64,000 nucleotides of DNA, taken from contig JAISUT010000047.1 of the NCBI GenBank assembly GCA_031271905.1, positions 26,350 through 90,349 of the forward strand. The letters are read 5' to 3'. Made by a program: the position numbers and the translations under genes. The notes beneath the pieces were generated by a model that saw only the letters and a program-made list of their open reading frames with translations, was not told the DNA's origin and searched no databases. Positions within the stretch are counted from its first letter, which is position 1. Every line of letters starts with the position of its first letter. The DNA is from Acidobacteriota bacterium. GTDB lineage: Bacteria; Acidobacteriota; UBA6911. Positions 17,617-36,573 of this stretch are shown piece by piece.

Positions 17617-18726
17617 ATGGGAGTTGACGAGATGACTGAGAATGTGAAGCAGGCTGGAAATGTGAGAAAGATATGCGTCCTTCCCGGCGACGGGATCGGC
17701 CCTGAAATCGTCGCCTCGGCGCTGGCGGTGCTGAAGCAGGTCGCCAGCGACGCCGGTTTCGCCGTCGAACTGCACGAGGAGGCCATCGGCGGCGTCGCCA
17801 TCGACGCCTTCGGCGACCCCTTGCCCGAGGCGACGCTCCGGCGCAGCCTGGAGAGCGACGCCGTGCTGCTCGGCGCGGTGGGCGGGCCCAAGTGGGACCC
17901 GAACCCGCCCGCGCTGAAGCCGGAGACGGGGCTCCTGGGCATCCGCAAGGCGCTCGGCCTTTACGGCAACCTGCGCCCGGTTAAGATGTTGCCGACCTTG
18001 GTGGACTGCTCCACCCTCAAGCCCGAGACCGTCTCGGGGGTGGACTTCGTGGTGGTGCGCGAACTCACCGGCGGGCTTTATTTCGGCAAGCCGCGCGGCG
18101 TCGAGGCCAGGGATGGCGTCGAAGTCGGCTTCAACAACATGGTCTACAGCCGCCCCGAGATCGAGCGCATCGCGCGCAAGGCGTTCGAGCTGGCGCGCCT
18201 GCGGCGGCGCAAGGTCACATCCGTGGACAAGGCGAACGTCTTGGAGGTCTGCCAGCTCTGGCGCAAGGTCGTGGCGGAGGTCGCCGGCGAATACCCCGAC
18301 GTGGAGCTGGAGCACATCCTGGTGGACAACTGCGCCATGCAACTGGTGCTGCGCCCGACGCGCTTCGACGTGCTGCTGACGGAGAACATGTTCGGCGACA
18401 TCCTCAGCGACATCGGCGGCGTCCTGACCGGCAGCATCGGGACGCTCCCGTCGGCGAGCGTGGGCGACGGCCCGGCGCTGTACGAGCCCATCCACGGCTC
18501 CGCCCCCGACATCGCGGGCAAGGACGTCGCCAACCCCGTGGGGACCGTCAACAGCGTCGCCATGATGTTCGAGCATTCGTTCGGCAGGCCCGACCTGGCG
18601 CGGCGCATCAACGACGCCGTGTGCCGCGTGCTGGAGGAGGGCTACAGGACGGCGGACGTCGCCAAGGCGGGGACGAAGACCATCGGCACGAAGGAGTTCA
18701 CCGCGAGAATCCAAGAGAAGCTGTAA
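17617..18726 (+). CDS. leuB: 3-isopropylmalate dehydrogenase
   Basis: 369 aa. [14 protein letters not shown]..., and the family signature [23 protein letters not shown] is present. Confidence 0.9.
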
Positions 18727-18953
18727 AGCCCCCGGGCAGGCTCGGCTATGCCCCAAACGCCGGTTTTCCGCGTAGATGTTGCGAGGTGCGGGGCGAAGCC
18801 CCGCCTTGGAAAGCGGCGGGCTCGCCGCCAGCAACCGTGAAGCGGTTGCAGAAGCCCCAACCCTGGGCTTCGTCCCAAAGCCCGGGGTTGGCGGGCGGCT
18901 TGCCGCCGTCTCCACATGTCCTCTGCGACAAATCGGGGGATTTTTTTGTAGGA

Positions 18954-18969
18954 TGTGACCCTGGTCACA
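18954..18969. promoter_or_regulatory. CRP/FNR-type palindrome TGTGACCCTGGTCACA, 155 bp upstream of the DAHP synthase start
   Basis: Perfect 16-bp palindrome with TGTGA-N6-TCACA geometry. Confidence 0.5.
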
Positions 18970-19123
18970 TCCCCCCGTTTCCCGGATGCTATCTTTCCTC
19001 GGAAATTAAAACGTCCCAAAACCGTCGGGGGCTCCACCCTCGATTGTCGCCGGACGGGGACGCCGCGACGTCGGCGGAAACGATGTTGGCAAACGGGGCG
19101 CGCCGCGCCCGAAGAGATGGGGA

Positions 19124-20173
19124 ATGAGAATCGTCAGGTTGCGCAAAGGATTGTCGGAGGCGGAAAAGGCCGTCGCGGTGTCGCGGATACAGGAGCTGTC
19201 CCCCGGCGCGAGGGTCATCGGCGCGGGCGGGGACGCCCCGTGCTTCGTCCGCGTCGAGCCGAAGGGGGTGGACGCCGCCGCAGTTCCGGCGGAGGAGTTC
19301 ACGCGCCTGGAAAACGTGCAGGACGTGATAGACGACGCGCCGGAGTACGCCCTCGGTTCGCGCCGCCTCCGCCCGGAGGACACTGCGGTCGCCGTCGGCG
19401 GCGGCGCGGAGGGCGCGGTCGTCATCGGCGGCGGGCGCCCCCCCGTCGTCATCGCGGGGCCATGCGCCGTCGAAGGCTACGACCAGATGGCGCGCGTCGC
19501 CGAAAGGCTCGCGGCGTTGGGGGTGCGCCTCATGCGGGCGGGGGCGTACAAGCCGCGCACCAGCCCCTACGCCTTCCAGGGTTTGAAAAAGCAGGGGCTG
19601 GAGATCATGGCGCGCGTCAAGCGCGAGTTCGGGATGAAGATGGTGACCGAGGTCATGAGCGGCGACAGGATAGACGAGGTCGCCGAGGTCGCCGACGTCC
19701 TGCAAGTCGGCTCGCGCAACATGTTCCACTACGCGATGCTGCAAGAGCTGGGGAGGCAGCCCAAGCCCGTCTTGCTCAAGCGGGGCATGGCGGCGGGGAT
19801 GCACGAGTTCCTGCTCGCCGCCGAGTACGTCCTGGCCGGCGGCAACCGCAACGTGATCCTGTGCGAGCGCGGCATCAAGACCTTCGAGACCGCCACGCGC
19901 AACACCCTCGACCTGAACGTGGTGCCTCACGTGAAGCAGAAGTCGCACCTGCCGATCCTCGTGGATCCGTCGCACGGGACGGGGTTGCGCCCCCTGGTCG
20001 CCCCCATGTCGCTCGCCGCGCTGGCATGCGGCGCGGACGGGCTGCTCATCGAGGTTCACGACCGCCCGGAGGAGGCGGTGTCCGACGGCGAGCAGTCCAT
20101 CACCCCCGTCGAGCTGGCGGCGTTGCTGGATGCGGTGCGCGGCGCAGCCGCCCCCGCCCGGGACGCGGCTTGA
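19124..20173 (+). CDS. 3-deoxy-7-phosphoheptulonate (DAHP) synthase, type I-beta, with an N-terminal ferredoxin-like regulatory domain
   Basis: C-terminal 250 aa match the AroG/KDO8PS-type TIM barrel (...KPRTSPY...LVDPSHGTG...). The ~95-aa N-terminal extension resembles the Thermotoga-type regulatory domain. Confidence 0.8.
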
Positions 20174-20209
20174 GCAAAGCAGGAAATAATTTCAAAGAAT
20201 CTTTCGAAA

Positions 20210-20225
20210 TGTGACCCTGGTCACA
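20210..20225. promoter_or_regulatory. CRP/FNR-type palindrome TGTGACCCTGGTCACA (identical to the 18954 site), upstream of the DUF2292-like and pilin genes
   Basis: Identical 16-mer, with GGAAATAATTTC 17 bp upstream and an AT-rich tract downstream. Confidence 0.5.
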
Positions 20226-20410
20226 ACGGGGCTTCGGAGACGATGTAGAATATGCCTCGAATGTTTGGCTAGGCTAAAACAATTAAACAAGGCTTTTTAT
20301 TTTAGATCGATTCAAACATTGGCCCCGTGGCGAGGCGGAGCGGCCGGAGCGTCGGCGAAAAGGAACGCGGGCCGGGTCGAGCCGGGGGCGGAACGGGAAC
20401 AGGTTCGGTC

Positions 20411-20626
20411 ATGGGGATGGCGGCTACGGCGACGAACAGGGACGTGCTGGAGATGTTCTCCCGGCTCTACCAGGAGGTTTTCGAGCATGACGGCTACGGG
20501 AACATCCAGGTGGAGATGCGCATCCTGCACCGGGGGCAGAAGGAGGTCATCATCCACTGCGGCAAGCAGTACAGGTTCGTGGTCGATTACGCCAACCCGG
20601 GCGTGAGACAGCCGCAACCTTCATAA
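20411..20626 (+). CDS. small YezD/DUF2292-like protein
   Basis: 71 aa ending ...DGYGNIQVEMRILHRGQKEVIIHCGKQYRF..., resembling the YG-I-V-Q-G-V-IE-EK-R pattern of DUF2292. Sits downstream of a CRP-type palindrome and an AT-rich promoter-like tract. Confidence 0.3.
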   Translation: MGMAATATNRDVLEMFSRLYQEVFEHDGYGNIQVEMRILHRGQKEVIIHCGKQYRFVVDYANPGVRQPQPS

Positions 20627-20870
20627 CCGAAAGTGGTTTTAGCCGCGTGCGGAGAGGGTCCGGCGCGGCGGCCTCCGCCGCGCGCCACAGTCGGCGTGGC
20701 GGAGGAGCAAGGGACGCCGGGACGGAGGGAGTCCGCCCCGGCGCGCCGGCACGGCTTGCTTGCCATGCCGGCGCGGAAACGAAGCAGTGAGGCAGACAAC
20801 TCCGAAGCGGCGGCCACTTGGGGAGGGGCGTCGCGGGGAAACGACAATTGAACGAAAGGAACCTGAGAAC

Positions 20871-21890
20871 ATGAAATCTCTGAAAAGCGTTTTGAAAGAC
20901 AGCGTGATTATGGGCCAGAAGGGGTTCACCCTCCTCGAACTCCTAGTGGTCGTCGCCATCCTGGCGGCCATCGCCGGCACCGCGGCCATCGCCTTGCAGG
21001 ACACCGACGCGCGCGCGTCCGCAGCGGCGCACGTCGCCATGATGGACGAGCTCAACAAGGGCGTGGCGACCTACCGCGTCCTGCACAAGAACGTCTACCC
21101 CGACAACTTCGACTCGTTGGCGTATGTGAATGACGCCAGCACCGATACTGCGGTAAATGGCGTGCTGTTACCACAAGAGGATGACGCCTCCGCTGGTGCC
21201 AATGGCGACATCCTTGGTTTTTCTGTAGATGACATTGCGCTGGGCACACTGATTGCTGGCGCTGAAGATTCTTTAGCGGATATCGGCATCACCAAGTTGC
21301 GCTATGTCAATGCCGCTTTTGACAACACCGATCTTCCCGAACTTACTCCGACTGAGAATTGCGACCCTGCTGGTGGCGCACTTCAGAAAGTCATCTCCAG
21401 CCGACGGAACAATATTGTCGCTGGGAATATCTTCAACGGTCCCGCCGCCAATGGGTGCGGTGCAAGTTTGGATATTGTTGCCGGTGCACAGGTTGCGTAT
21501 TGGGTCGGATCACTTGAACGTGTACTTGGCCCCGGTGAATATGGCGATGCCGCATTTTCTGGAACGGCCATGGCCTCAAATTCCAGTGTCCCGGCTGGTG
21601 TCACTGCACCTATTCTTATGGCGGTTGGTTTCGGTCCTGCCTCCGACCTGTTCAAGCCTGAGATCCTGGGCAGCATGACTTCCGTTCCCGTGTACCGTCA
21701 TGTCCGCGAAGACCAGTACAATCGTTTCATTGGGCTCTTCCGTGTCGGTGAAGCAACGACTACGGGGTCGGATGTTTGGGCGGCACCCACCACGACCGAG
21801 CAGGTGCTGTTCGTCGGCGTGGTCGATGGCGCCGGCGACACCAAGGAGGAAGAGCTGGGCGAATGGGACGGCACCCGCAGCACCATCTAA
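20871..21890 (+). CDS. prepilin-type N-terminal cleavage/methylation domain protein (pilin-like, 339 aa) with an unusually long 18-aa leader
   Basis: MKSLKSVLKDSVIMGQKG|FTLLELLVVVAILAAIAG: class III signal with the G/FTLLE motif. AAAGGAAC RBS. A strong terminator follows the gene. Confidence 0.75.
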   Translation: MKSLKSVLKDSVIMGQKGFTLLELLVVVAILAAIAGTAAIALQDTDARASAAAHVAMMDELNKGVATYRVLHKNVYPDNFDSLAYVNDASTDTAVNGVLLPQEDDASAGANGDILGFSVDDIALGTLIAGAEDSLADIGITKLRYVNAAFDNTDLPELTPTENCDPAGGALQKVISSRRNNIVAGNIFNGPAANGCGASLDIVAGAQVAYWVGSLERVLGPGEYGDAAFSGTAMASNSSVPAGVTAPILMAVGFGPASDLFKPEILGSMTSVPVYRHVREDQYNRFIGLFRVGEATTTGSDVWAAPTTTEQVLFVGVVDGAGDTKEEELGEWDGTRSTI

Positions 21891-21916
21891 CCCACCATCG
21901 ACGCAACCTCCAACAC

Positions 21917-21985
21917 GGGGCGGCTATGGCCTAGCCGCCCCGCCCCACCGCGCGGCCGGCTCCCATCGCCGGCCGCGCCTTTTTC
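21917..21985 (+). terminator. tandem hairpin intrinsic terminator downstream of the pilin gene
   Basis: Hairpin GGGGCGGCTA-tggcc-TAGCCGCCCC, then GCGCGGCCGGC-tcccatc-GCCGGCCGCGC followed by CTTTTT. Confidence 0.7.
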
Positions 21986-22102
21986 ACAAGTCCGCAACGC
22001 CGGCCCCGCCCCTTCGTCCATCCGCGTTTTGGGAAGCAGCCGCAATCAAAGACGATGAGTTGGAATGGACGGAGGACGCCGTGACAGCCAAGGATGAACT
22101 GT

Positions 22103-23029
22103 TTACGGGACGGCGGTCGATGGCGGCGTCGCAGTCCACGACGCACACACACTGCTATGCAACCGCAACGCCTCCCTCATCTTCCCCGCCAGCCTCTCGG
22201 AAACCTCGGACGGATGCGAAACCATCAGCATGTGGTCGTTGAAATCAAACACGACCAATTCCTTATGCGGCGCGCGCAGGCGTTCGAACACCAAGCGGGT
22301 ATAGTCGGCGGTGAACAACTTGTCGCCGCTGTCGGCGACGACGTAGACCGGGCACCGGACGCTGCCGTCCGTCAGTCCGGGGAACTCCGTGGTGAACAGG
22401 CTGCCCAAGAAATGCAGGGGGTAGCGGGTCAGGCACAGCGGGTCGCCGCCCACCTTGTCCCATATCTCCCGCGACGTGCTGATACGTTCGCGTTTCATAT
22501 AAAAATCCAGCGGCAGCGCCAAATCCGGCAATATCCGGGCGCAGAACTTGAACACGCCCCGCGTCGGACGGTATAGATGGCGCAACCACCTTGGGAAGCG
22601 CGACACATAGATCGACTGCGGGAGCTCCGTCAGGAGGAGGTTGTGGGGGAACGCCGCCGCCAGACGCCCGTCCTCCGCAGCCAGCACCGCCGCCACGACG
22701 CCGCCTTGGCTGGAGCCGAACGCGATCACGGGCAGTCCGAACCGCTCCAGCGCGAACGTGACCGCGTCGCGCCCGTTCCCCACAATATCGCGTATCGTGT
22801 AGCGCTTGACCTCGCGCGGGCTTTTGCCGTGCCCCACCGGATGCAGTCCGACGACGGCGAAGCCGCGTTCCGCGAAGCCGTGGAGCAACGCCTCGTAAAA
22901 CAGGGGGTGGACCATCGTCGCCGGGACGAACATGATCGCCGCCTCCGGCGCCGCCGACGCCCAGACCGACAGGACGACACGGGCGCCGCCCGATGTTATT
23001 TCGTGCTCCGTGTAAGAAACAGCCATGCC
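22103..23029 (-). CDS. alpha/beta-hydrolase fold esterase/lipase
   Basis: 308 aa. Nucleophile elbow GSSQGG, upstream HG oxyanion region, and a C-terminal D...H pair. Confidence 0.75.
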   Translation of the reverse strand, partial: GMAVSYTEHEITSGGARVVLSVWASAAPEAAIMFVPATMVHPLFYEALLHGFAERGFAVVGLHPVGHGKSPREVKRYTIRDIVGNGRDAVTFALERFGLPVIAFGSSQGGVVAAVLAAEDGRLAAAFPHNLLLTELPQSIYVSRFPRWLRHLYRPTRGVFKFCARILPDLALPLDFYMKRERISTSREIWDKVGGDPLCLTRYPLHFLGSLFTTEFPGLTDGSVRCPVYVVADSGDKLFTADYTRLVFERLRAPHKELVVFDFNDHMLMVSHPSEVSERLAGKMREALRLHSSVCASWTATPPSTAVP

Positions 23030-23237
23030 CCCCTCGCACCGTCGGTCGGCGACCTGCGGACTTCGACCAGTTCCGCGCATCGTTGCAACATCCTGGCGGG
23101 GAACCGCCGCGTCCGGGCGACGAGATCGAATAACCCGCCCGCGCGGCGGCGGCGAACGCCGCTTCCAAAAGCCGGCATCCCCCCGCAGTTACATTTCCAG
23201 CGAAAAGCCGGAGTATACCGGGAACGGGCCGCGACAT

Positions 23238-23253
23238 TGTGACCGAGGTCACA
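23238..23253. promoter_or_regulatory. CRP/FNR-type palindrome TGTGACCGAGGTCACA in the esterase/pilus-cluster intergenic region
   Basis: Perfect 16-bp palindrome. Confidence 0.45.
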
Positions 23254-23471
23254 ACCGCAAAAACAACCGGCTCGCCATCGGACGCCGCCATGCGGGATCG
23301 TGCGGCGCATATCGCTTCGCGGGGATGGGAGGGCTTTCGCCGACGCCGCGCCCTGCCGGGTTCGCACTCTGACAGACGCCCGGGCGGCAACGGATCCGAC
23401 GCATCCAAGGCTCACGCCTGCGCATGGTGGAACCCGGCGGGGCGCCCCCGGTGGAAATAATTTTCCCGAAC

Positions 23472-23487
23472 TGTGACCTCAGTCACA
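23472..23487. promoter_or_regulatory. CRP/FNR-type site TGTGACCTCAGTCACA, 135 bp upstream of the first plus-strand pilus-cluster gene
   Basis: TGTGA-N6-TCACA, with GGAAATAATTTTC upstream and TAGGCTAAATATT downstream. Confidence 0.5.
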
Positions 23488-23622
23488 TCGGACGCGCGGG
23501 GACGGGATAAAATGCCACCTTAAATTCGGAGAGACGAATTTGATTAGCATAGGCTAAATATTCGCCCGCCGCATGGGGCGGCGGCGGACAGAGGCCGCAA
23601 AGGACGGACTTCGGGGGCGACG

Positions 23623-23925
23623 ATGGACAGGAAGACGATGCTGGGGGGGCTGTTTTTCGGAATGCTGTTGTTCACCGGATGCGGGGAGTCGCCGGACGTC
23701 CCGGCGATGAAGGAGGGGTTGGTGAGATCGGGGATGCCCGAGGACGAGGCGGACTGCTTCGCGGAGAAGCTGGGCGACACGGTGGCTGGCGAAGCCTACA
23801 ACTACATGTCCGCCCTCATGGGCGAAGGGGTGGACGAGAAAGACGCCATCACCAAGGCTCGCCGGAAATACGGCGCCGAATTCCGCTCGGGCGTGACCGA
23901 GGCGCGCAAGGCATGCGCGGAATAG
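23623..23925 (+). CDS. small lipoprotein of unknown function
   Basis: Signal peptide plus lipobox (LLFTGC); 100 aa. First gene of the plus-strand pilus/T2SS cluster, after the CRP-type sites. Confidence 0.4.
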   Translation: MDRKTMLGGLFFGMLLFTGCGESPDVPAMKEGLVRSGMPEDEADCFAEKLGDTVAGEAYNYMSALMGEGVDEKDAITKARRKYGAEFRSGVTEARKACAE

Positions 23926-23961
23926 CCTCCTGGCGCAGGCGTCAGACAAGGAGGATGCCCC

Positions 23962-24774
23962 ATGCCCAAAGCACGGCGTTTTAAAACCCGGGAGCCGGGA
24001 ACCGGAACCGATTCCGGCTTCTCCCTGTTGGAGCTGCTGGTGGTCGCATCCATCCTGGTGGCGACCTCCGTCATCGCCGCCGCGACGTTCGGGGGCATCC
24101 GCCGCCACACCGACGGGCGGCTGGCGCATGCGGAGATGCAGGAGATCGCCGCCGCCATCCGGCGTTTCAAACAGGACACCGGTTATTATCCCAAGACAGG
24201 GCCGTTCGATTTGGAGACAAATGGCGGGAACGTGCCCTTGGCGGCGCTCCCCTCCTATGCCGGGACGACCGATGCGGAGAAAGAAGCGTGGTTTTACTCG
24301 CCAGCGAACTTCTGGCAGCTCATCACCACCCAAAGCCCCCTCATAGACCCCGGGTCGGAGGAGGGGGGGCATCCGCTGGCGAAGTGGGCTCCGGCGACAG
24401 GACGGGGTTGGCGCGGCCCGTATCTCAGCGGCCACAGAGACGGGTATCTGACCATCGGCGCGGGCGTCAACAGCTCCGCCCCGTCCCCGGCGCAGGGGGA
24501 GCGGACCGGCGATCCCGGCGCAGGCGACAAGATTCACGACGTCGCCGGCATCGCCGACCCGTTTGAACACAGCGGCGTCGGCGGTTTTCTGGAATGGAGC
24601 AGCCGGGAATGGGGCGGCCGGGGAGAGGGCGCAGCCCCCCCCGCATCGCATCCGGTGTGGGGACGGCCCTACCTCGTCTTTGGCTGGGACGCCGCCCACC
24701 CCACGCTCGTCAGCATGGGCCCGAACGGAGATTACGAGTACGGAGACGGAGACGACATTGAATTGGAGATTTGA
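23962..24774 (+). CDS. prepilin-type N-terminal cleavage/methylation domain protein (pseudopilin-like, 270 aa) with a long leader
   Basis: MPKARRFKTREPGTGTDSG|FSLLELLVVASILV... Confidence 0.7.
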   Translation: MPKARRFKTREPGTGTDSGFSLLELLVVASILVATSVIAAATFGGIRRHTDGRLAHAEMQEIAAAIRRFKQDTGYYPKTGPFDLETNGGNVPLAALPSYAGTTDAEKEAWFYSPANFWQLITTQSPLIDPGSEEGGHPLAKWAPATGRGWRGPYLSGHRDGYLTIGAGVNSSAPSPAQGERTGDPGAGDKIHDVAGIADPFEHSGVGGFLEWSSREWGGRGEGAAPPASHPVWGRPYLVFGWDAAHPTLVSMGPNGDYEYGDGDDIELEI

Positions 24775-24781
24775 CAGGCGC

Positions 24782-25360
24782 ATGAAGATCATCACGGGGG
24801 TGCTCGCGGCGCTCGCGGTCTGCGCGGCATCGTCACCGCCGCCCCTCAAGTCGCAGACGGGGGCGGGGGCGCGGGAGGAACCGTCGGGTGCGAAAGCGCC
24901 GGGCTCGGCGAAGCATGCCGAGCCGTTTTTCAAGGACATCGACCTCGACCGGTTCATCGAAAAAGAAAAGGCGACGGTCGCGCATGCGGGCAAGAAGTTG
25001 ATCGCCCGCGACGCGCCCATCCGCTTCGAGGCGACGATGAAACGCATCCCGGAAAAAAAGAAGATGGCGTACATCTACACGGCGATGAGCGCCGCAGGGG
25101 TGTCACCCCTGCCGGAAGTCGAACACCGGATGTTCATCGAGACCAAGGGGCGGCGGATCATCTCGGTGTATGTGGAGAAAGGGGTTGCGGCACGAATACC
25201 GGGCGGTTTGAAGGAAGGCGCGGCGGCTCAGTTCTTCGGCTACCACGTCTACAGCTATGACAAGGGTCCGGCGATCATGGTCGTGGATTTCTCCCCCGCC
25301 TCGGCCACGTCGAAGCCGAAAGCGGCGACGGGGGGGGCGACGAAGAAGAAACGCAAGTAG
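24782..25360 (+). CDS. exported protein of unknown function within the pilus/T2SS cluster
   Basis: Signal peptide MKIITGVLAALAVCAASS; 192 aa with a Lys-rich C-terminus. Confidence 0.45.
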   Translation: MKIITGVLAALAVCAASSPPPLKSQTGAGAREEPSGAKAPGSAKHAEPFFKDIDLDRFIEKEKATVAHAGKKLIARDAPIRFEATMKRIPEKKKMAYIYTAMSAAGVSPLPEVEHRMFIETKGRRIISVYVEKGVAARIPGGLKEGAAAQFFGYHVYSYDKGPAIMVVDFSPASATSKPKAATGGATKKKRK

Positions 25361-25371
25361 GGCGGGGGCAC

Positions 25372-26544
25372 ATGCGCATACAAGGTTATCGGGGCATCGG
25401 GGACTGCGAACCGGGGACCGACGACGGCTTCACGCTGCTGGAGCTGTTGGTGGCGGTGGTGTTGTTGTCCGCCATGGCGTGGATGACGCTCGGCCTGGTC
25501 GCCGACGACGTCAACCAGGCGCGCTACGAGGACACGCGCAACCGCCTCCGCGCCATCCGCGCAGCCGTGCTGGGCTCGCCCGCGCTCATGGAGAACGGAC
25601 TCGTCGGCGGTTTCGTCGCCGACAACGGCAGGCTGCCTTCGAGCATCGCCGAGCTGTCGGGCGTCGCGGAGGCCTTGGAGCCTTTCGGCCCCAAGGCCCC
25701 CGTATTCGATCCGACCCCCGACGCCAAGGGCTTCGACAACGGCGACGAACCAGGCGAAGAAGAAGCGGACAAGGTGGTCGAATTGGGCGGCGCGCGGCAA
25801 CTGCTGATGAAGGGGCATCGCGGCTTCTACCTGGACGGCGGCGCATACCGCGACGGCTGGGGCAACCGGTCCAGCTTCATTTCACCCGGCGTGTCGTGCC
25901 CGAGCCCGCCGGGCGTGGCATTCTCGGATGATGACGGCCATGAGAGCGACGACGGCGATGACAACTACGGGTGGTGCGTGACGCGCAAGAAAACCGACGA
26001 CGACGGCTACACGGAGCTTTACGTCGCCAGCTACGGCATGGACGGCGTCGAAGGCACGACGACCTGCGAAGAGGGCGACGCCACGCCGGTATGCGCCTAT
26101 GAGGAAGACGCCCAGATGTCGCCGCCGATCCTGGAAGCCGACTGGCGGACGCCCGTCCCAAGCATCGAAGTCTCGGTCGTCAGCCGCGGGGGGGGCGGCA
26201 TCCCTTCGAGCGACACCCCCTGGGGCGTCGCCCTGCTCGTCTATGTCAGCGACGCCGGCGACGACGATTCGAAACCGCCGCCCGGGCGGTGGCGGCAGTG
26301 GTTCTCCGACACCGCATCGACCGCAGCCCACTGCGCAGACGGCAGGTGCGATTTCGATTTTGTCTTCGCCGGCGGCGAGACGTCCCCGATTCCGCAAATC
26401 CCCATGGGGGAGCACCTGCTGGCGCTGTTCGAGGTCGATGGCGCCGCCAAGGCGTTGGTCAAGGACGGGGACGAATACGTCACGGCGCGGGTGAAGTTCT
26501 TCCCGCGCGGCGGCGTGCCGACGGCGAGGTTGGCGATACAGTAG
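25372..26544 (+). CDS. prepilin-type N-terminal cleavage/methylation domain protein (large pseudopilin-like, 390 aa) with a long leader
   Basis: MRIQGYRGIGDCEPGTDDG|FTLLELLVAVVLLSAMAW... Confidence 0.7.
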   Translation: MRIQGYRGIGDCEPGTDDGFTLLELLVAVVLLSAMAWMTLGLVADDVNQARYEDTRNRLRAIRAAVLGSPALMENGLVGGFVADNGRLPSSIAELSGVAEALEPFGPKAPVFDPTPDAKGFDNGDEPGEEEADKVVELGGARQLLMKGHRGFYLDGGAYRDGWGNRSSFISPGVSCPSPPGVAFSDDDGHESDDGDDNYGWCVTRKKTDDDGYTELYVASYGMDGVEGTTTCEEGDATPVCAYEEDAQMSPPILEADWRTPVPSIEVSVVSRGGGGIPSSDTPWGVALLVYVSDAGDDDSKPPPGRWRQWFSDTASTAAHCADGRCDFDFVFAGGETSPIPQIPMGEHLLALFEVDGAAKALVKDGDEYVTARVKFFPRGGVPTARLAIQ

Positions 26545-26562
26545 GATGGATTCCCCGAGCCC

Positions 26563-28431
26563 ATGCCACATCCCGGGCGGAGAGGGTTCGCCGGACGACA
26601 GGTGCGCGACTTGGACAGCAAGAAGAAATCGAGATTCCCCGCCCTGGGTTTGGGGCGACCGTCACGGACGCTGGTCTTCGAAACCACCGGTTGCGCCCTG
26701 TACGGCCTAGTCGCCACCCGGGGACGCGCCGCCGACCCGGAGTTCAGCCCGGTCGCCGTCTCGCGGGAGGTCGATTTCGAAAAGGCCGTCGCCGAGGTGC
26801 GCGAACGCCTCGCGGCGGCGACCGGGAGGCGGCTGCCGAAGACGGCGGTGCTGGTCACCCCGTCCGCCGTCGGAACCTTGACCAGCCTGCCGGTGAGTCC
26901 GCAAAAGCCCCGGCCGCGCGAGCAGATGAAGGAGCTGGTCCGTTGGGAGTTGCAAGACCTGTTCGCCCGGCAGGATTTGGCATGGTCGCTGGGCGCGCTC
27001 CTGGTGGGGCGCGGATACCTGACGCCCGACGAGCGCGCCGAACTGGAGGCGGATGGCAACCGGGGCGGCGCCGAGCTTTACGCCGGGATGGCGACGCGGG
27101 CGCAGCTCGACGAATGCCGCGCGTTGCAAGAGGCGTTGCTGTCCGGCGAAGGGGCGGAAGAGGACGACATCGCCGCCGCATGGGTGGCGCAAGCCGCCGC
27201 CGAGGAGACCGGCCCGTTCACCTGGCATGTCGCCGGCATCGGCGACGCCCTGCGCCGTCGCTGGGTGCGCGCATTCAAAAAAAACGGCATCTCCTGCTCC
27301 GTCATCTACCCGCAACTGGGGGCGGCCATCCCCCTGGCGGGCGCGGGCGCCGGAGACGACGAGGGATGGCTGCTGGCGGACGTCCGGCAGGAACAGTTCG
27401 GCATGTTCCATGGCGAGGGCGGGAGGCTGGTGTCGGCGGCGACCAAGGCGTGCGCGGGCGGCGTCTTCGACCCGCTTGCCGCCGCCGAAGCCGCCCGCCG
27501 CCCGCTCCGCTCCGGTGTGCGCAAGGTCTATTGCGCGGCGGAGGACGGACAGGCGGATGCGTTGCGCGCCGCGCTGGAAGACGCCGACCCCGGCGGCACC
27601 GTCGAATTCATCCGGTTCCTGCACGCCCCGGGGCTCGGCGCGGACGGGGGCGGTTGCCCGGTCGCCGTGTTCGCATCGTTGCGCGGCGCGGCGATGCGCG
27701 CCTTGGCGGGCAGGGCGAAGACGGCGGCGGCGCCCGCCGGCATCTCCGCCTCCCCGCCACGCCCCCCCGCATGGAAGGACCGGAACCTTTGGCCCTGGGC
27801 AGCCATCGCGCTCCTGGCGCTGGGATTCGCCGGTTTAGACACTTGGATGCGATCCGAGGCGAAAAGGCTCGACTGGGAGAAAGAGAAGCTCGATATCGAG
27901 AGAGACCGCCGCCAGCGGGTGATCCGCGAGACGCAGGGCGTAAACGCGGAATCACGCCGCCTGGCGGCGGAACTGGCGGCGGTGGAGGCGGAATTGCGGA
28001 TGGAGCAAAGCCTCCGCGAATTCCGCGACACGGTGGTGGCGGAGAGGTTGGACTTCGCGCCGGAGGCGTTGAAAACCATAGCGGAGGCCGTCACGGACGA
28101 CATCGTGCTGACGAAGATCGAGGAAGGGGACAACGGCGCCGGCTTCGCCTTGAGCGGCAACGCCGCCCGCGACACCGCCGGGTTGCAATTCAGCAAACGC
28201 CTGACCGACGCCTTCGCCCCCTGGGGTTATCGCGTGGACGACATGCAGATAGACCGCACCGGAGCAACCGGGCAGGTGGGGGGATTCTCCTTCCGCCTGC
28301 TGTTGGCCAAGCCACCGCAAAAGGCGGCCGCACCCGAAGCCGCGACCGGCGCCGCCGAAAGCGAGACGGCGGGGAAAGGCGGGGGCGCGGAAGGCGAGAC
28401 GAAGGAGCCGGCGAAGAAGGGGGGGCTCTAA
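26563..28431 (+). CDS. PilM-like cytoplasmic actin-fold domain fused to a PilN-like TM/periplasmic domain (assembly platform protein)
   Basis: The N-terminal ~350 aa resemble PilM/GspL-cyto. One TM helix (LWPWAAIALLALGFAG) is followed by a coiled-coil and a PilN-like periplasmic domain. The stop codon lies inside a repeat element. Confidence 0.55.
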   Translation: MPHPGRRGFAGRQVRDLDSKKKSRFPALGLGRPSRTLVFETTGCALYGLVATRGRAADPEFSPVAVSREVDFEKAVAEVRERLAAATGRRLPKTAVLVTPSAVGTLTSLPVSPQKPRPREQMKELVRWELQDLFARQDLAWSLGALLVGRGYLTPDERAELEADGNRGGAELYAGMATRAQLDECRALQEALLSGEGAEEDDIAAAWVAQAAAEETGPFTWHVAGIGDALRRRWVRAFKKNGISCSVIYPQLGAAIPLAGAGAGDDEGWLLADVRQEQFGMFHGEGGRLVSAATKACAGGVFDPLAAAEAARRPLRSGVRKVYCAAEDGQADALRAALEDADPGGTVEFIRFLHAPGLGADGGGCPVAVFASLRGAAMRALAGRAKTAAAPAGISASPPRPPAWKDRNLWPWAAIALLALGFAGLDTWMRSEAKRLDWEKEKLDIERDRRQRVIRETQGVNAESRRLAAELAAVEAELRMEQSLREFRDTVVAERLDFAPEALKTIAEAVTDDIVLTKIEEGDNGAGFALSGNAARDTAGLQFSKRLTDAFAPWGYRVDDMQIDRTGATGQVGGFSFRLLLAKPPQKAAAPEAATGAAESETAGKGGGAEGETKEPAKKGGL

Positions 28432-28540
28432 AAAGCCCGCAGACAAGGCGTCGCAGCAGGTCGGAAAGCGGAGTCTACTGCGGCGAACGAGTATTTCGAC
28501 CAAGGCGCAACGCAGCATCCGGGGTTTTCAGAGGTTTCCC
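28421..28540 (+). repeat. copy B of a ~120-bp interspersed palindromic element (MITE/REP-like)
   Basis: GGGGGCTCTAAAAAGCCCGCAGACAAGGCGTCGC...CAAGGCGCAACGCAGCATCCGGGGTTTTCAGAGGTTTCCC, bounded by terminal inverted repeats. Confidence 0.85.
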
Positions 28541-28554
28541 AAGGGGGATGGACG

Positions 28555-29262
28555 ATGATCGAGCGCTGGAAGGGGATGTCCCGAGGCGAACGCCTCAAAT
28601 GGCAGGTGGTGATCGCCTTCATGACCGTAGCCGTCTACGGGCTGGCGGTCTACCCGCCGTTGCACAAGGATTACCAGTCGGCGAAGAACATGCTGAACCG
28701 GAGCCGCGACCGGATGGAGAAACGCGCGGACATCAGCAAGGTGAGCATCGAAGGGGTCGGCCCCGCCGCCTTGGAAAAGAGGATAGCCGAGGCGCGGGAG
28801 AAGCTCGCGGCGATCGAGGGCGATTCCGAAGACCTCGACTCCTGGTTCCCCGCGTCCGGCGACAAGGAGGCGCGCCAGCAACAACTGTTGGAACTCGCCA
28901 CGCTTTCGGAGCGGATAGGCATGGAGATAGTGTCGATCACCGACAAGCCGGCGCCCGGCGCCGGCGGGGGGAACAAGACAAAGCCGGCCAAGAAGGCGTC
29001 GAAGAAGGACGCGCAGGAGGACGATGCCGCGAAGGCGCCGCCGCCGCTGGAGGCGGCGCGCCCCCGCCTGGTCATCAAGGCGAACGCCTCGTTCACCCAG
29101 GTGTTGGAGTTCCTCGACGGATTGGCGGATCTGTCCTTCATCACATGCGCGACGAACCTGAAGCTCTACGCCTCGCCTGCGGACGCCCCCGGCGGCGCGC
29201 GCGACAAATCGTCGAAAGCGAAAGCGGGCAGGCTTTACGTGATCCTCGAGGTGTCGGTCTGA
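28555..29262 (+). CDS. PilO/GspM-like inner-membrane assembly protein
   Basis: 235 aa with one N-terminal TM (WQVVIAFMTVAVYGLAVY), a coiled-coil, and a C-terminal alpha/beta domain. Position between the PilMN fusion and GspE supports the call. Confidence 0.45.
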   Translation: MIERWKGMSRGERLKWQVVIAFMTVAVYGLAVYPPLHKDYQSAKNMLNRSRDRMEKRADISKVSIEGVGPAALEKRIAEAREKLAAIEGDSEDLDSWFPASGDKEARQQQLLELATLSERIGMEIVSITDKPAPGAGGGNKTKPAKKASKKDAQEDDAAKAPPPLEAARPRLVIKANASFTQVLEFLDGLADLSFITCATNLKLYASPADAPGGARDKSSKAKAGRLYVILEVSV

Positions 29263-29263
29263 C

Positions 29264-30922
<1,659 letters not shown>

Positions 30923-30925
30923 GCG

Positions 30926-32158
30926 ATGCCGCAATACCGATATGTGGGTTTGGACTCAGGCGGCGCCGAGCGGCGCGGCGTCATAGAAGCCGAGGACGGG
31001 AAGGCCGCCGCACGGCTCTTGCGGCAACGCTCCATCTTCCCCGAAAAGGTGTCGGCCGTGAATGCGGCGGCGGACGGAGACGGAGTCGGGCCCCTGGCAC
31101 ACCTCAACCCTCTCCGGCTCCTGTCGCCCGGCGTCAACGACATGGTGACGCTCTACCGGCAACTCGCCATGATGTTGCGGGCGGGCATCCCGCTGGCGAC
31201 GGCGCTGGAGGAGTGCGCGCGGATGCAGCAACGGCTCACCTTGGCGCGCGCGATCGGGAGGGTGAACAAGAGGATCGCCGAAGGGGCGTCGTTCGCCGCC
31301 GCCTGCGGACAGGAGAAGCGGATATTCCCCCCGCTGGCGACCAACCTCATGGCGGCGGGGGAGCAGAGCGGCAACCTGGAGATGGTGTTGGACAGGCTGG
31401 CGGAGAGCATCGAGCGCAGCCATGACATCAAGCGACAGCTCATGTCGGCGATGTTCTATCCGTCCTTCGTGCTGGTCGTCGCGGCAGGCATCGTGGTCTT
31501 CATGGTGGTGTGGGTCATCCCCAAGTTCTCGACCTTCCTCTCGGCGCGCCACGCCGAGCTGCCGGCATCGACCCTGATGCTGCTGGACTTCGCGCAGTGG
31601 GCGCGCGACTACGGCATGTACGTCTCCGGGGCGTTGGGGGGTGCCGTGCTCCTGCTCCTCGCGGCATACACGACCAAGGCGGGCAAACGGCGGATAGACG
31701 CCTTCGTCTTGCGGATCCCCGTCATCGGCGCCGCGACGCTGGTGGCGGCGATGGCGCAGGCGTCGTGGAACCTCTCCATGCTCATACGGAGCGGCATCAC
31801 GATCCTCGAGGCGTTGCGCGTCCTCGGGCGGGTGGTCGGCAACCTGGCGGTGGCGGACTGCTTCAAGGGCGCCGCCGATGAATTGCTCAAAGGATGCGCC
31901 TTGTCCAAGGCGTTCGAGCGCCAGAGGCACATCACGCGGATGATGCGGCAGATGGCGGCGGTCGGGGAGCGGAGCGGCGAACTGGACGCGGTGATGCGGG
32001 GGGTGGGCGAGTATTACCAGAAGGAGCTGGCCTCGAAGCTGAAGTTCCTGGTGGTCGTCATCGAGCCGACGCTGATATTGCTGACGGGCGGCATCGTCTT
32101 CTGCGTCTACTACTCGCTGTTCCAGGCGGTCATGGCGGTTTCAAAGGGGGGGATGTAG
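30926..32158 (+). CDS. gspF: type II secretion system protein F / PilC-family inner-membrane platform protein
   Basis: 410 aa. Duplicated GspF domain (LYRQLAMMLRAGIPLATAL...) and three TM segments. Confidence 0.9.
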   Translation: MPQYRYVGLDSGGAERRGVIEAEDGKAAARLLRQRSIFPEKVSAVNAAADGDGVGPLAHLNPLRLLSPGVNDMVTLYRQLAMMLRAGIPLATALEECARMQQRLTLARAIGRVNKRIAEGASFAAACGQEKRIFPPLATNLMAAGEQSGNLEMVLDRLAESIERSHDIKRQLMSAMFYPSFVLVVAAGIVVFMVVWVIPKFSTFLSARHAELPASTLMLLDFAQWARDYGMYVSGALGGAVLLLLAAYTTKAGKRRIDAFVLRIPVIGAATLVAAMAQASWNLSMLIRSGITILEALRVLGRVVGNLAVADCFKGAADELLKGCALSKAFERQRHITRMMRQMAAVGERSGELDAVMRGVGEYYQKELASKLKFLVVVIEPTLILLTGGIVFCVYYSLFQAVMAVSKGGM

Positions 32159-32160
32159 CG

Positions 32161-32736
32161 ATGTCCATGGAACGTATGCGGCGCAAGTCCGGCGTCCGCC
32201 GAATGGCGGTGCGTCTGCTGGTTTGCGCATGGGCGGCGACGACCGCCCCGGCGGTTTCCGCCCAGGCGTCACAGGCGGGGGGAGGCGTGGGCGCGGCGGT
32301 GGAGGAGGGCCAGCGGCGGCGAGACGACGCCATGCGCAGGGCGTTGGACGTGGACGCGGACACGGCGAGCGAGGACGAGGGGGGCGCAGGGGGGCGCGGC
32401 GCCTCGCGCCGCCCCGCCCCGCGCGAGGAAGCCCGACCGCTGCGCGACCCGTTCTCGCCCGTCGGCGCATTTGACGACGCCGAGTTCCGCGCCGGCGGGA
32501 TGCAACGCGCGCAAGACATCCCCAAGATGCGCTTGCGCGGGCACCTGAAGGTCAGAGGCGGCGAGACGATCGCCTTGCTGGAGATCGTGGGCGGCGGCGT
32601 CCACATCGTGCGCGAAGGGGACACGGTGGGGCTGTACGACCTGGGGCTGGATTCGGTGATCCGCATACGGAAGATCGACAAGCTGCACCTGGTGGTGGAG
32701 TCGGGCTCCCTGGGCAAAACCATCATCGTGAGGTAG
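32161..32736 (+). CDS. exported PilP/GspC-like protein
   Basis: Signal peptide, an Arg/Asp/Gly-rich linker, and a C-terminal beta domain (IALLEIVGGGVHIVREGDTVGLYDL...). AGGGGGGG RBS. Confidence 0.4.
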   Translation: MSMERMRRKSGVRRMAVRLLVCAWAATTAPAVSAQASQAGGGVGAAVEEGQRRRDDAMRRALDVDADTASEDEGGAGGRGASRRPAPREEARPLRDPFSPVGAFDDAEFRAGGMQRAQDIPKMRLRGHLKVRGGETIALLEIVGGGVHIVREGDTVGLYDLGLDSVIRIRKIDKLHLVVESGSLGKTIIVR

Positions 32737-32749
32737 GAGGGGAGGGAAA

Positions 32750-34677: not shown

Positions 34678-34681
<4 letters not shown>
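32750..34681 (+). CDS. secretin (GspD/PilQ family) outer-membrane channel
   Basis: C-terminal secretin domain ...VPVLGDVPLFGFLFRDQTKSEVKTELVLLITPHVI. N-domains plus an unusual RS/GY-rich low-complexity insert. Confidence 0.85.
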
Positions 34682-35612
<931 letters not shown>

Positions 35613-35613
<1 letters not shown>

Positions 35614-36548: not shown

Positions 36549-36573
36549 ACGACAGATCATAGGAAATTTCATT

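What the first reader, a model, noticed from the sequence alone, without database searches (positions are those of the whole stretch)
18954..23487. Four perfect CRP-type palindromes (TGTGA-N6-TCACA) within 4.5 kb, placed upstream of DAHP synthase and the pilin/pilus-cluster genes
The sites are TGTGACCCTGGTCACA (twice, identical, at 18954 and 20210), TGTGACCGAGGTCACA (23238) and TGTGACCTCAGTCACA (23472). All are intergenic and all match the canonical CRP/FNR-family half-site spacing. Established knowledge: CRP-family regulators (for example HcpR-type regulators in anaerobes) bind TGTGA-N6-TCACA. The 20210 and 23472 sites share an upstream GGAAATAATTT(C/T) motif ~17 bp 5' of the palindrome, and an AT-rich TAGGCTAAA-containing tract ~45-75 bp downstream just before pilin-like genes. 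This looks like a shared promoter architecture for a co-regulated set that includes the secretion/pilus genes.
Basis: partly seen in the sequence, partly recalled or inferred. Interest (0 to 1): 0.7.

Follow-up and report, generated by a model that had tools for sequence, protein, structure and literature searches.

The report
CRP-type activator sites, pilus regulon
The four palindromes are real and are most likely docking sites where one CRP/FNR-family regulator, encoded on another contig of the same genome, switches on promoters for a DAHP synthase, a pilus/secretion gene cluster and a hydrolase; this is an ordinary kind of gene switch used by an unstudied branch of the regulator family.

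Summary
Observation confirmed: four perfect TGTGAC-N4-GTCACA palindromes (18954, 20210, 23238, 23472; 0.01 expected), all intergenic, with no degenerate copies elsewhere in the 64 kb. Each has a TAnnnT -10-like hexamer exactly 20 bp past the palindrome on the gene-ward side, no -35 hexamer and a T-tract just upstream. That is the geometry of a class II CRP/FNR-activated promoter. Site 3 faces the minus-strand alpha/beta hydrolase. The same architecture sits at matching positions in relatives of 43-62% GC (24 sites, at least 7 lineages). In six of these lineages a CRP/FNR-family gene lies within about 0.5 kb of a site, divergently transcribed from the regulated operon. The window organism's ortholog (P0122, MDR1726643.1) is on another contig of the same MAG. 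That contig carries a fifth perfect site upstream of an M75-peptidase/DHOR operon, which is also site-linked in Desulfobacter. The regulator keeps the Arg180/Glu181/Arg185 triad that reads TGTGA, but lacks the cAMP-contact residues and has a conserved C-x3-C-x-C motif, so cAMP is probably not its signal. It is neither canonical CRP nor demonstrably HcpR. This is a new member of a known kind, of moderate-to-low interest. A second recurrent palindrome (TTAG-N6-CTAA) remains unexplained.

The parts
18941..18947 (+). T7 tract 6 bp upstream of site 1; a UP-like element, the candidate alpha-CTD contact in a class II promoter
   Evidence: Sequence. The T fraction is 0.7-0.8 at positions -13 to -7 before the palindrome across 24 sites.
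18954..18969 (.). Site 1, TGTGACCCTGGTCACA, operator of the DAHP synthase promoter
   Evidence: Near-perfect sites lie in the same position upstream of DAHP synthase in L082 (141), L083 (1484) and L084 (2253).
18990..18995 (+). -10-like hexamer TATCTT (preceded by TGc), exactly 20 bp after site 1
19124..20173 (+). DAHP synthase (type I-beta, PF00793), target gene of site 1
   Evidence: Pfam. It equals P0001 / MDR1728108.1.
20182..20209 (+). AT-rich upstream tract of site 2, including GGAAATAATTTC
20210..20225 (.). Site 2, TGTGACCCTGGTCACA, operator of the promoter for the small-protein/pilin operon
   Evidence: Matching sites lie before the small-protein gene in L082 (1363), L083 (2661), L085 (5381), L089 (5033, 5360), L108 (1238), L152 (9799), L153 (7990) and L154 (9835).
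20246..20251 (+). -10-like hexamer TAGAAT, 20 bp after site 2
20264..20279 (+).
20411..20626 (+). Conserved 71-aa protein of unknown function, first gene after site 2
   Evidence: Gene call. 557 homologs, 53-84% identical among those listed. No Pfam or NCBIfam match. The AF2 model has no significant fold match.
20871..21890 (+). Pilin-like protein (339 aa) with a prepilin N-methylation motif
   Evidence: Pfam and NCBIfam. 61-65% identical to relatives.
21950..21988 (+). Strong intrinsic terminator after the pilin gene (11 G-C pairs, then CTTTTTC)
22103..23026 (-). Alpha/beta hydrolase, target of site 3; absent at this position in relatives
   Evidence: Pfam. Gene call of 307 aa. L082, L084 and L152 have only a hairpin between the pilin gene and the ~100-aa gene.
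23212..23217 (-). -10-like hexamer TATACT on the minus strand, 20 bp from site 3
23238..23253 (.). Site 3, TGTGACCGAGGTCACA, operator of the minus-strand hydrolase promoter
23453..23464 (+). GGAAATAATTTT, AT-rich tract upstream of site 4
23472..23487 (.). Site 4, TGTGACCTCAGTCACA, operator of the promoter for the pseudopilin/T2SS-like operon
23508..23513 (+). -10-like hexamer TAAAAT, 20 bp after site 4
23544..23557 (.). Second motif TTAGCATAGGCTAA (TTAG-N6-CTAA palindrome) in the leader at about +24
23638..35613 (+). Operon-like run of genes: 95-aa lipoprotein-like ORF, pseudopilins, unknown proteins, T2SSE ATPase with an MshEN domain, T2SSF, secretin, MoxR ATPase
   Evidence: Pfam and NCBIfam. 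The same gene order is seen in L084, L152, L153 and L154.

Best explanation
The four palindromes are operators for a dimeric CRP/FNR-family transcription factor. They sit in class II-type, activator-dependent promoters. Each promoter has, in order: a T-rich UP-like tract; the 16-bp palindrome occupying the place of the missing -35 element; a 20-bp GC-rich spacer; a TAnnnT -10 hexamer; and a 118-180 nt leader. With a start 6-8 nt after the hexamer, the palindrome centre falls near -40.5/-41.5.

The bound dimer would recruit RNA polymerase (sigma region 4 and alpha-NTD contacts, with alpha-CTD on the T-tract) and switch on four transcription units: the DAHP synthase; the 71-aa protein plus major pilin-like protein; a lineage-specific alpha/beta hydrolase (minus strand); and the pseudopilin/T2SS-like assembly operon.

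The cognate regulator is most likely P0122 (MDR1726643.1, 244 aa). It is encoded on another contig of the same MAG and belongs to a small, distinct CRP/FNR subfamily of about 26 clusters at 50% identity. The regulon extends beyond the window to an M75-peptidase/DHOR/L-PSP operon. The regulon is conserved in Desulfobacter, where all these genes flank the regulator gene. The input signal is probably not cAMP.

Shown: the sites, their geometry, their conservation, their co-occurrence with the regulator gene, and the DNA-reading residues. Inferred: physical binding, activation rather than repression, the transcription start sites, and the signal.
For: - The sites are non-random and all intergenic.
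- TAnnnT occurs at offset 20 for 4 of 4 sites and at no other offset from 10 to 30. The local intergenic frequency of TAnnnT is about 0.006 per position, so the chance of 4 of 4 in either orientation is about 3e-8.
- No -35/-10 sigma-70 promoter is found in the region.
- The composite recurs at matching positions in relatives of 43-62% GC whose flanks are otherwise diverged. The 24-site consensus is tTtTTTT-c-aa-TGTGAyc..gGTCACA-N20-TAta.T.
- Only 3 composite hits, all with 2 mismatches, occur in 1.29 Mb of control loci. The family loci hold 18 hits with 0-1 mismatch, 16 once the duplicate contigs L086 and L117 are set aside.
- An orthologous CRP/FNR gene (cNMP_binding + HTH_Crp_2) lies within about 0.5 kb of a site in L083, L085, L089, L108, L152, L153 and L154.
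- Among the pilin loci from the metagenome scan, every locus with the TF gene has a 0-1-mismatch composite and no locus without it does.
- The ortholog P0122 comes from the same sample and the same accession block as the window. Its contig carries a fifth perfect site before the M75/DHOR operon, and the same operon is site-linked in Desulfobacter.
- The R-E-T-x-S-R recognition helix is invariant in the clade and aligns with E. coli CRP R180/E181/R185. The literature ties this triad, and Arg180 in particular, to TGTGA specificity (PMC2677863, PMC545781).
- The class II description is in PMC10187061.
Against: - There are no transcription-start or binding data, so the -40.5/-41.5 position rests on an inferred -10 hexamer.
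- The regulator gene is not in the window, and other CRP/FNR paralogs of this MAG could not be surveyed.
- A site overlapping the -35 region could also repress if another promoter is used.
- In the window organism all five known sites are perfect and no weaker ones were seen, which is unusual for a regulon. However, only 76 kb of the genome was available.
- In Desulfobacter the palindrome-to-hexamer spacing varies from 20 to 22 bp.
Confidence: 0.8

Rival explanations
1. The sites are repressor operators. The same CRP/FNR-family protein binds over the -35 region and blocks RNA polymerase, so the genes are expressed when the regulator is inactive.
For: CRP/FNR proteins can repress, and the outcome depends on site position (PMC545781). 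The sites overlap the region where a -35 element would lie.
Against: None of the promoters has a recognisable -35 hexamer, so they would be weak without an activator. The rigid 20-bp register to the -10 hexamer and the upstream T-tract are conserved across 24 sites; these are expected for activation geometry and are not needed for simple occlusion. In PMC545781 the repressing HcpR sites overlap the -10 box, not the -35 box.
Confidence: 0.1
2. The palindromes are bound by a different CRP-type regulator of this genome, for example a canonical cAMP-CRP or an HcpR-like paralog, and not by the P0122 clade. On this view the neighbourhood of P0122 orthologs in relatives is coincidental.
For: TGTGA-N6-TCACA is shared by many CRP-type proteins (PMC10187061, PMC545781). 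The rest of the MAG could not be searched. P0122 is not adjacent to any of the four window sites.
Against: Orthologs of P0122 lie within about 0.5 kb of such sites in six independent lineages. The sites co-occur with that gene among the pilin loci. P0122 keeps the R/E/R triad. A fifth site lies 7.7 kb from P0122 on its own contig.
Confidence: 0.08
3. The palindromes are not protein-binding sites. They are copies of a short repeat (REP/MITE-like) or RNA hairpins/terminators.
For: Sites 1 and 2 are identical 17-mers. Each palindrome could form a 6-7 bp hairpin.
Against: Similarity between copies ends at 17 nt and the flanks do not align. The central N4 differs between copies. No U-tract follows any hairpin; the T-tract lies on the 5' side. 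No Rfam family matches. Sites at matching positions in relatives differ in sequence but keep the half-sites and the register to the -10 hexamer.
Confidence: 0.02

Closest known systems
E. coli CRP (CAP) at class II promoters (e.g. galP1)
   Same: The half-sites and spacing are the same (TGTGA-N6-TCACA). The regulator has the same fold (cNMP_binding + HTH_Crp_2) and the same R180/E181/R185 DNA-reading triad. The site replaces the -35 element, with an A/T-rich tract upstream for alpha-CTD.
   Different: The regulator scores far below NCBIfam's CRP cut-off (for P0129, 28 bits against 266; CRP is not among P0122's hits at E<=0.001). The cAMP contacts are not conserved: E72 becomes Leu, R82 becomes His/Tyr, T127/S128 become Phe/Cys. 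It has a conserved C-x3-C-x-C motif in the C-helix. The palindrome-to-hexamer spacing implies a centre near -40.5 rather than a measured -41.5.
HcpR of Desulfovibrio (predicted regulon, Rodionov et al. 2004, PMC545781)
   Same: It is an FNR-like regulator of anaerobes. Having Arg at the position of Arg180 correlates with a CRP-like TGTGA signal, and sites that overlap the -35 box are predicted to activate.
   Different: HcpR is defined by control of, and co-localisation with, hcp-frdX. No hcp was found in the window or next to the regulator in any locus. The targets here are pilus/T2SS-like genes, DAHP synthase and an M75/DHOR operon.
CRP-family regulators of type IV pili / T2SS (Clp of Xanthomonas and Lysobacter; from my own knowledge also Vfr and SYCRP1)
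   Same: The theme is the same: a CRP-type protein binding TGTGA-type sites controls pilus or secretion machinery (PMC8246147, listed). The ATPase of the cluster here has a c-di-GMP-type MshEN domain.
   Different: It is not orthologous: the closest solved relatives are DNR and FNR at E about 1e-10. The effector is unknown. The regulon also includes DAHP synthase and iron/redox-type genes.
FNR / DNR (closest solved structures: 3dkw DNR, 5cvr FNR)
   Same: The overall fold and the ETxSR part of the recognition helix are shared. The presence of sensor cysteines suggests redox sensing.
   Different: FNR and DNR have Val/Pro rather than Arg before the Glu, and they read TTGAT-N4-ATCAA. FNR's N-terminal Cys cluster is absent; the cysteines here lie in the C-helix.

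Membership tests
CRP/FNR-family operator | Inverted repeat of 5-bp half-sites separated by 6 bp (TGTGA-N6-TCACA type) | tested here: met
   Four perfect matches, 0.01 expected.
CRP/FNR-family operator | Located in promoter regions, not distributed through coding sequence | tested here: met
   All 4 window sites and the fifth on L151 are intergenic, although about 89% of the window is coding.
CRP/FNR-family operator | A cognate regulator with cNMP-binding-like and HTH_Crp_2 domains is present in the same genome | tested here: met
   P0122 (MDR1726643.1) comes from the same sample and the same accession block as the window protein MDR1728108.1.
CRP/FNR-family operator | Recognition-helix residues compatible with TGTGA (Arg180/Glu181/Arg185 of E. 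coli CRP) | tested here: met
   ARETFSR is invariant or nearly so in the clade and aligns with SRETVGR of CRP. The specificity rule comes from PMC2677863 and PMC545781.
CRP/FNR-family operator | Physical binding of the regulator to the sites | not testable with these tools
   This needs EMSA, DAP-seq or ChIP.
Class II activator-dependent promoter | Activator site overlaps the -35 region (centre near -41.5 from the transcription start) | tested here: inconclusive
   The distance to a -10-like hexamer is fixed at 20 bp, which puts the centre at about -40.5/-41.5. No start site has been mapped.
Class II activator-dependent promoter | No functional -35 hexamer of its own | tested here: met
   No two-hexamer sigma-70 match occurs in 18600-24000. 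The bases at the -35 position are ACAtcc, ACAacg, ACAatg and ACAtcg.
Canonical cAMP receptor protein (CRP/CAP orthologue) | cAMP-contact residues E72, R82/S83 and T127/S128 | tested here: not met
   In alignment A2, E72 is Leu, R82 is His/Tyr and T127/S128 are Phe/Cys. The residue list is from PMC10187061. The NCBIfam CRP equivalog is far below its cut-off.
HcpR regulon | Regulator co-localised with, and sites upstream of, hcp (hybrid cluster protein) / frdX | tested here: not met
   No hcp was found among the window genes or in L083, L151, L152, L153 or L154. The rest of the genome was not seen.
FNR (oxygen sensor) | N-terminal Cys cluster plus Cys122 binding a [4Fe-4S] cluster, and a TTGAT-N4-ATCAA operator | tested here: not met
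   There is no N-terminal Cys cluster; the conserved cysteines lie in the C-helix. The operator is TGTGA-type. The Fnr subfamily model scores 41 bits against a cut-off of 228.
REP/MITE-like repeat | Copies share extended flanking homology and occur irrespective of promoters | tested here: not met
   The shared unit is 17 nt only.

The most novel reading that the evidence does not exclude
The sites mark the regulon of an undescribed, cysteine-rich CRP/FNR subfamily, recognisable by the signature SCRxxC(L/I)CRK plus ARETFSR and comprising about 26 clusters at 50% identity. On this reading the regulator senses a redox, metal or Fe-S-type signal instead of cAMP. It co-activates an uncharacterised but widespread pilus/T2SS-like apparatus (led by a conserved 71-aa protein of unknown fold), a dedicated DAHP synthase with a chorismatase-like partner, and an imelysin/di-haem (M75/DHOR) module. 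A second operator (TTAG-N6-CTAA), which also sits in front of the regulator gene itself, would add a second layer of control.
Probability: 0.35. Interest if true: 0.55.

Novelty: new member of a known kind. Interest (0 to 1): 0.35.

Why it matters
This gives a concrete, testable regulon and a promoter grammar for an unstudied branch of the CRP/FNR family in uncultured anaerobes and in Desulfobacter. It links three sets of genes that are neighbours in Desulfobacter and motif-linked across contigs in this MAG:
- a widespread pilus/secretion-like system of unknown role;
- a dedicated DAHP synthase, replaced by the non-homologous type II enzyme in one Desulfobacter, which argues for a functional tie;
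- an M75/DHOR operon.

The motif can be used to annotate regulon members in MAGs, and it suggests experiments in culturable Desulfobacter. It does not change what is known about how CRP-type activators work.

Tried and rejected
- The GTDB scan with the DAHP synthase returned only distant relatives (57% identity or less). None carries the motif, so they served only as a negative control.
- Rfam finds no family at gathering threshold anywhere in the window. The long leaders are therefore not known riboswitches.
- A tblastn of the L083 regulator and of E. coli CRP against the window finds no CRP/FNR gene there. Pfam scans of 50 window ORFs agree.
- I tried to walk beyond the window with an edge protein, but the sequence was not on record, probably because its start codon was called differently.
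- The repeat-element reading is rejected: the flanks do not align and the shared unit is 17 nt.
- The terminator/hairpin reading is rejected: no U-tract follows the palindromes.
- The sigma-54 reading of the TAGGCTAAA tract was rejected by eye: there is no GG-N10-GC.
- Reading the TAGGCTAAA/GCTAAA element as the -10 of a second promoter found no consistent -35 partner.
- The 71-aa protein has no Pfam or NCBIfam match. Its AF2 model (pLDDT 82) has no significant PDB fold match (best E = 0.2).
- A weaker-site scan of the window (up to 3 mismatches plus TAnnnT at 19-21 bp) gave only three extra hits, each with 3 mismatches (9498; 51014 and 51064). I regard these as noise.


Full report
**1. The observation**

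The pattern TGTGA-N6-TCACA occurs exactly four times in the 64-kb window: 18954 and 20210 (both TGTGACCCTGGTCACA), 23238 (TGTGACCGAGGTCACA) and 23472 (TGTGACCTCAGTCACA). Dinucleotide-preserving shuffles predict 0.01 occurrences. Allowing up to two mismatches to TGTGAC-N4-GTCACA adds no further site.

The window is about 66% G+C. Its source is an NCBI MAG labelled Acidobacteriota bacterium, on a 141-kb contig. The same DNA occurs on a Logan contig from run SRR14710912. Gene calls on that contig, and my own GC3-based gene set (coding fraction 0.89), place all four sites between genes.

The flanking genes are:
- an isocitrate/isopropylmalate dehydrogenase (17617-18726);
- a type I-beta DAHP synthase (19124-20173);
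- a 71-aa ORF (20411-20626);
- a 339-aa pilin-like protein with a prepilin methylation motif (20871-21890);
- a convergent alpha/beta hydrolase (22103-23026, minus strand);
- a 95-aa ORF (23638-23925);
- a long plus-strand run of pseudopilins, unknown proteins, a T2SSE ATPase with an MshEN domain, T2SSF, a secretin and a MoxR ATPase.

GGAAATAATTTY is at 20182 and 23453. TAGGCTAAA is at 20270 and 23550. Their distances to the palindrome differ between the two promoters: 16 vs 7 bp upstream and 44 vs 62 bp downstream.

**2. Promoter anatomy**

I oriented each site towards its gene. A TAnnnT hexamer then starts exactly 20 bp after the palindrome in all four cases: TATCTT at 18990, TAGAAT at 20246, TATACT on the minus strand at 23217-23212, and TAAAAT at 23508. 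No TAnnnT occurs at any other offset from 10 to 30 bp on either side of any site.

TAnnnT has a frequency of about 0.006 per position in the local intergenic DNA and 0.0015 in the whole window. The chance of four out of four at one offset in either orientation is therefore about 3e-8.

The bases where a -35 hexamer would lie are the last three bases of the palindrome plus three unrelated bases. A two-hexamer sigma-70 scan finds nothing between 18600 and 24000. A T-rich tract lies just upstream of each palindrome.

Site 3 therefore belongs to the divergent hydrolase, not to the pilus genes. The layout is a T-tract, a palindrome in place of the -35 element, a fixed spacer and a -10 hexamer. This is the layout of class II CRP/FNR-dependent promoters, in which the dimer sits in the -35 region and contacts alpha-CTD, alpha-NTD and sigma region 4 (PMC10187061). 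With a start 6-8 nt after the hexamer, the centre of the palindrome is near -40.5/-41.5. This figure is inferred, because no start site has been mapped.

**3. Not a repeat element or an RNA structure**

The four copies share only 17 nt, and their flanks do not align. No T-run follows the palindromes. Rfam finds nothing in the window.

**4. Comparative evidence**

Close relatives are missing from GTDB representatives. The best DAHP synthase matches are 57% identical or less and lack the motif.

Protein searches found closer relatives. Three of them (L082, L083, L084; 62-68% DAHP synthase identity; 55-58% G+C) keep the same gene order: DAHP synthase, small protein, pilin-like protein, ~100-aa protein, pseudopilins, T2SSE and T2SSF. 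A metagenome scan with a pilin alignment added 66 loci.

Near-perfect sites lie at matching positions in these loci, and every one has TAnnnT at +20 and a TTTTTTTCAAAA-like tract upstream:
- before DAHP synthase in L082 (141), L083 (1484) and L084 (2253);
- before the small-protein gene in L082 (1363), L083 (2661), L085 (5037 and 5381), L089 (5033 and 5360, a tandem duplication) and L108 (1238).

The control was 1.29 Mb of unrelated DAHP synthase loci. It holds three composite hits, all with two mismatches. The family loci hold 18 hits with zero or one mismatch, or 16 once the duplicate contigs L086 and L117 are set aside.

**5. The regulator**

In L083 a CRP/FNR-family gene lies divergently upstream of DAHP synthase, about 350 bp from the site. 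Orthologs that are 41-42% identical to it lie in the same divergent position in L085/L086, L089 and L108/L117. All carry cNMP_binding and HTH_Crp_2 domains. Among the pilin loci of the metagenome scan, the zero-or-one-mismatch composites occur only in the loci that carry this gene.

The window itself has no such gene. A search with the L083 protein found P0122 (244 aa, 56% identical), annotated as a Crp/Fnr regulator of an Acidobacteriota MAG. Three facts place it in the same genome. It lies on a 67% G+C contig from the same run, SRR14710912. Its accession (MDR1726643.1) is within about 1,500 of the window's DAHP synthase (MDR1728108.1). And it carries the same source labels.

That contig (L151) holds a fifth perfect site, TGTGACTGAGGTCACA at 9736. 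It lies between an operon of two M75 peptidases, a DHOR di-haem protein and a 390-aa L-PSP-domain protein (minus strand) and a DUF2325 gene. In the minus orientation it has the usual T-tract and TATATT at +21.

**6. Regulon conservation**

In a 6.5-Mb Desulfobacter contig (L152) the orthologous regulator gene is flanked on one side by the small-protein/pilin/pseudopilin/T2SSE cluster. On the other side are DAHP synthase, the L-PSP protein, a DsbA-like protein, DHOR and two M75 peptidases. Perfect or one-mismatch sites precede the small-protein operon (9799), the L-PSP-DAHP synthase operon (13497, with TATAAT at +20) and the M75 operon (19797, with TATATT at +22). One further site is at 20376.

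Two more lineages show the same arrangement. L153 (43% G+C) has a site at 7990. L154 (Desulfobacter, CP054837.1) has sites at 9741, 9835, 12368, 19962 and 20021. In L154 the DAHP synthase next to the L-PSP gene is of the non-homologous type II family (PF01474). This argues that DAHP synthase activity, not that particular gene, belongs to the system.

So genes that are motif-linked across two contigs in the window organism are physical neighbours of the regulator in Desulfobacter. A consensus over 24 sites from 10 loci reads tTtTTTT-c-aa-TGTGAyc..gGTCACA-N20-TAta.T.

In relatives the pilin gene is followed only by a hairpin and then the ~100-aa gene. The window has a strong terminator (21950-21978), an inserted hydrolase and two extra sites. 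Sites 3 and 4 therefore look lineage-specific.

**7. What kind of CRP/FNR protein**

The recognition helix is ARETFSR. It is invariant or nearly so across the clade and aligns with SRETVGR of E. coli CRP, that is, with R180, E181 and R185. This triad determines specificity in the family (PMC2677863). Arg180 in particular goes with the CRP-like TGTGA signal rather than the FNR-like TTTGA signal (PMC545781).

The residues that hold cAMP in CRP are E72, R82/S83 and T127/S128 (PMC10187061). They are not conserved here: the clade has Leu, His/Tyr and Phe/Cys at these positions. Instead the clade has a conserved SCRxxC(L/I)CRK motif in the C-helix, and usually a further Cys in the motif CLRR.

The nearest solved structures are DNR and FNR, at E about 1e-10. 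All NCBIfam equivalogs (FtrB, Fnr, CRP, NtcA) score far below their cut-offs. An exhaustive search of 1.84 billion cluster representatives finds only 26 with E of 1e-30 or better, and then a gap in scores.

The regulator is therefore CRP-like in what it reads on DNA. It is not a canonical cAMP-CRP. It is not FNR, because it has no N-terminal Cys cluster. And it cannot be filed as HcpR, because no hcp target was seen anywhere in the loci examined. A redox, metal or Fe-S signal is a reasonable guess, but it is untested.

**8. Unexplained second motif**

In the 76 kb available for this organism the relaxed pattern TT[AT]G-N5-GCTAA occurs at four places: window 20264, window 23544, L151 1018 (in front of the regulator gene) and L151 9785 (next to the fifth site). 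That is five strand matches against 0.26 expected.

The motif recurs in relatives:
- in the leaders of the small-protein operon in L083 (2714) and L089 (5085, 5412);
- just upstream of the regulator gene in L153 (8125) and L154 (9901);
- before the L-PSP gene in L154 (17868);
- inside a sigma-70-like promoter in L083 (191).

It could be the operator of a second regulator or a 5'-proximal RNA hairpin. I could not decide between these.

**9. Side results**

The 71-aa protein belongs to a large family of hypothetical proteins. The search returned 557 homologs, and those listed are 53-84% identical, from Desulfobulbus, Desulfotalea, Chromatiaceae and others. Its AF2 model is one helix plus three strands at pLDDT 82, and it has no significant fold match.

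The best solved match of the L-PSP-domain protein is 5ag3/5a3k (E = 2e-9). I recall these entries as Hyg5-type chorismatases. [quoted passage not shown] A DAHP synthase plus chorismatase module is therefore plausible but not shown.

**10. Verdict**

The palindromes are operators of class II-type promoters controlled by a small, uncharacterised, probably cAMP-independent CRP/FNR subfamily. Its regulon is conserved between this MAG and Desulfobacter. This is a new member of a well-known kind of system. It is useful for annotation and for designing experiments, but it is not mechanistically surprising.

Noticed in passing
window 23544-23557 and 20264-20279; L151 1018 and 9785; L083 191 and 2714; L089 5085 and 5412; L153 8125; L154 9901 and 17868: A second palindrome, TTAG-N6-CTAA (often tTTAG-N6-CTAAa), recurs in leaders of regulon operons and just upstream of the regulator gene in three lineages. 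In window+L151 it gives 5 strand matches against 0.26 expected. No binding protein has been assigned.
   Followed up: partly
window 20411-20626: The 71-aa protein at the head of the pilin operon belongs to a large, strongly conserved family of hypothetical proteins (557 homologs, found from Desulfobulbus to Chromatiaceae and Nitrotoga). It has no Pfam or NCBIfam model. The confident AF2 model (helix plus 3 strands) has no significant PDB fold match.
   Followed up: partly
window 20871-21890: The pilin-like gene has GC3 of about 0.63, against 0.83-0.95 in neighbouring genes, and the window's G+C dips to 0.59 here. This may reflect horizontal replacement or diversifying selection of the pilin's central part.
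   Followed up: no
window 22103-23026 with sites at 23238 and 23472: The alpha/beta hydrolase lies between the pilin gene and the pseudopilin operon only in this organism. L082, L084 and L152 have just a hairpin there. The insertion coincides with two extra divergent operator sites 234 bp apart.
   Followed up: partly
L085 5037/5381, L089 5033/5360, L154 9741/9835: Several relatives have tandem copies of the whole promoter (T-tract, palindrome, -10) 94-345 bp apart upstream of the small-protein gene. In L089 the two copies are nearly identical. The ~300-bp stretch between them has no obvious ORF.
   Followed up: no
L154 15210-16469 vs L152 10914-11942 and window 19124-20173: One Desulfobacter genome has a type II DAHP synthase (PF01474) next to the L-PSP-domain gene, where the other loci have the type I-beta enzyme. 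This is a non-orthologous replacement within a conserved neighbourhood. The 390-aa L-PSP protein weakly matches PDB 5ag3/5a3k, which I recall as chorismatases.
   Followed up: partly
L083 231-337 and 1270-1386: A direct repeat of about 110-150 bp (87-90% identical, 1039 bp apart) flanks the regulator gene in L083.
   Followed up: partly
window 1691-6198 and 29264-30922: The window starts with a GGDEF protein, an EAL-HDOD protein and a hybrid histidine kinase. The T2SSE ATPase of the pilus cluster has an MshEN domain, which is a c-di-GMP receptor domain in MshE-type ATPases. c-di-GMP control of the apparatus is therefore possible.
   Followed up: no
window 34678-40521: Directly after the secretin come a MoxR AAA ATPase, a TgpA-type transglutaminase (884 aa), an FTR1 iron permease and a rubrerythrin. 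No operator site precedes them.
   Followed up: no
window 20182-20193 and 23453-23464: The 12-mer GGAAATAATTT(C/T) occurs only at these two promoters in the window (none expected). It lies at different distances from the palindrome (16 and 7 bp). It may be a UP-like element or a remnant of a promoter duplication.
   Followed up: partly
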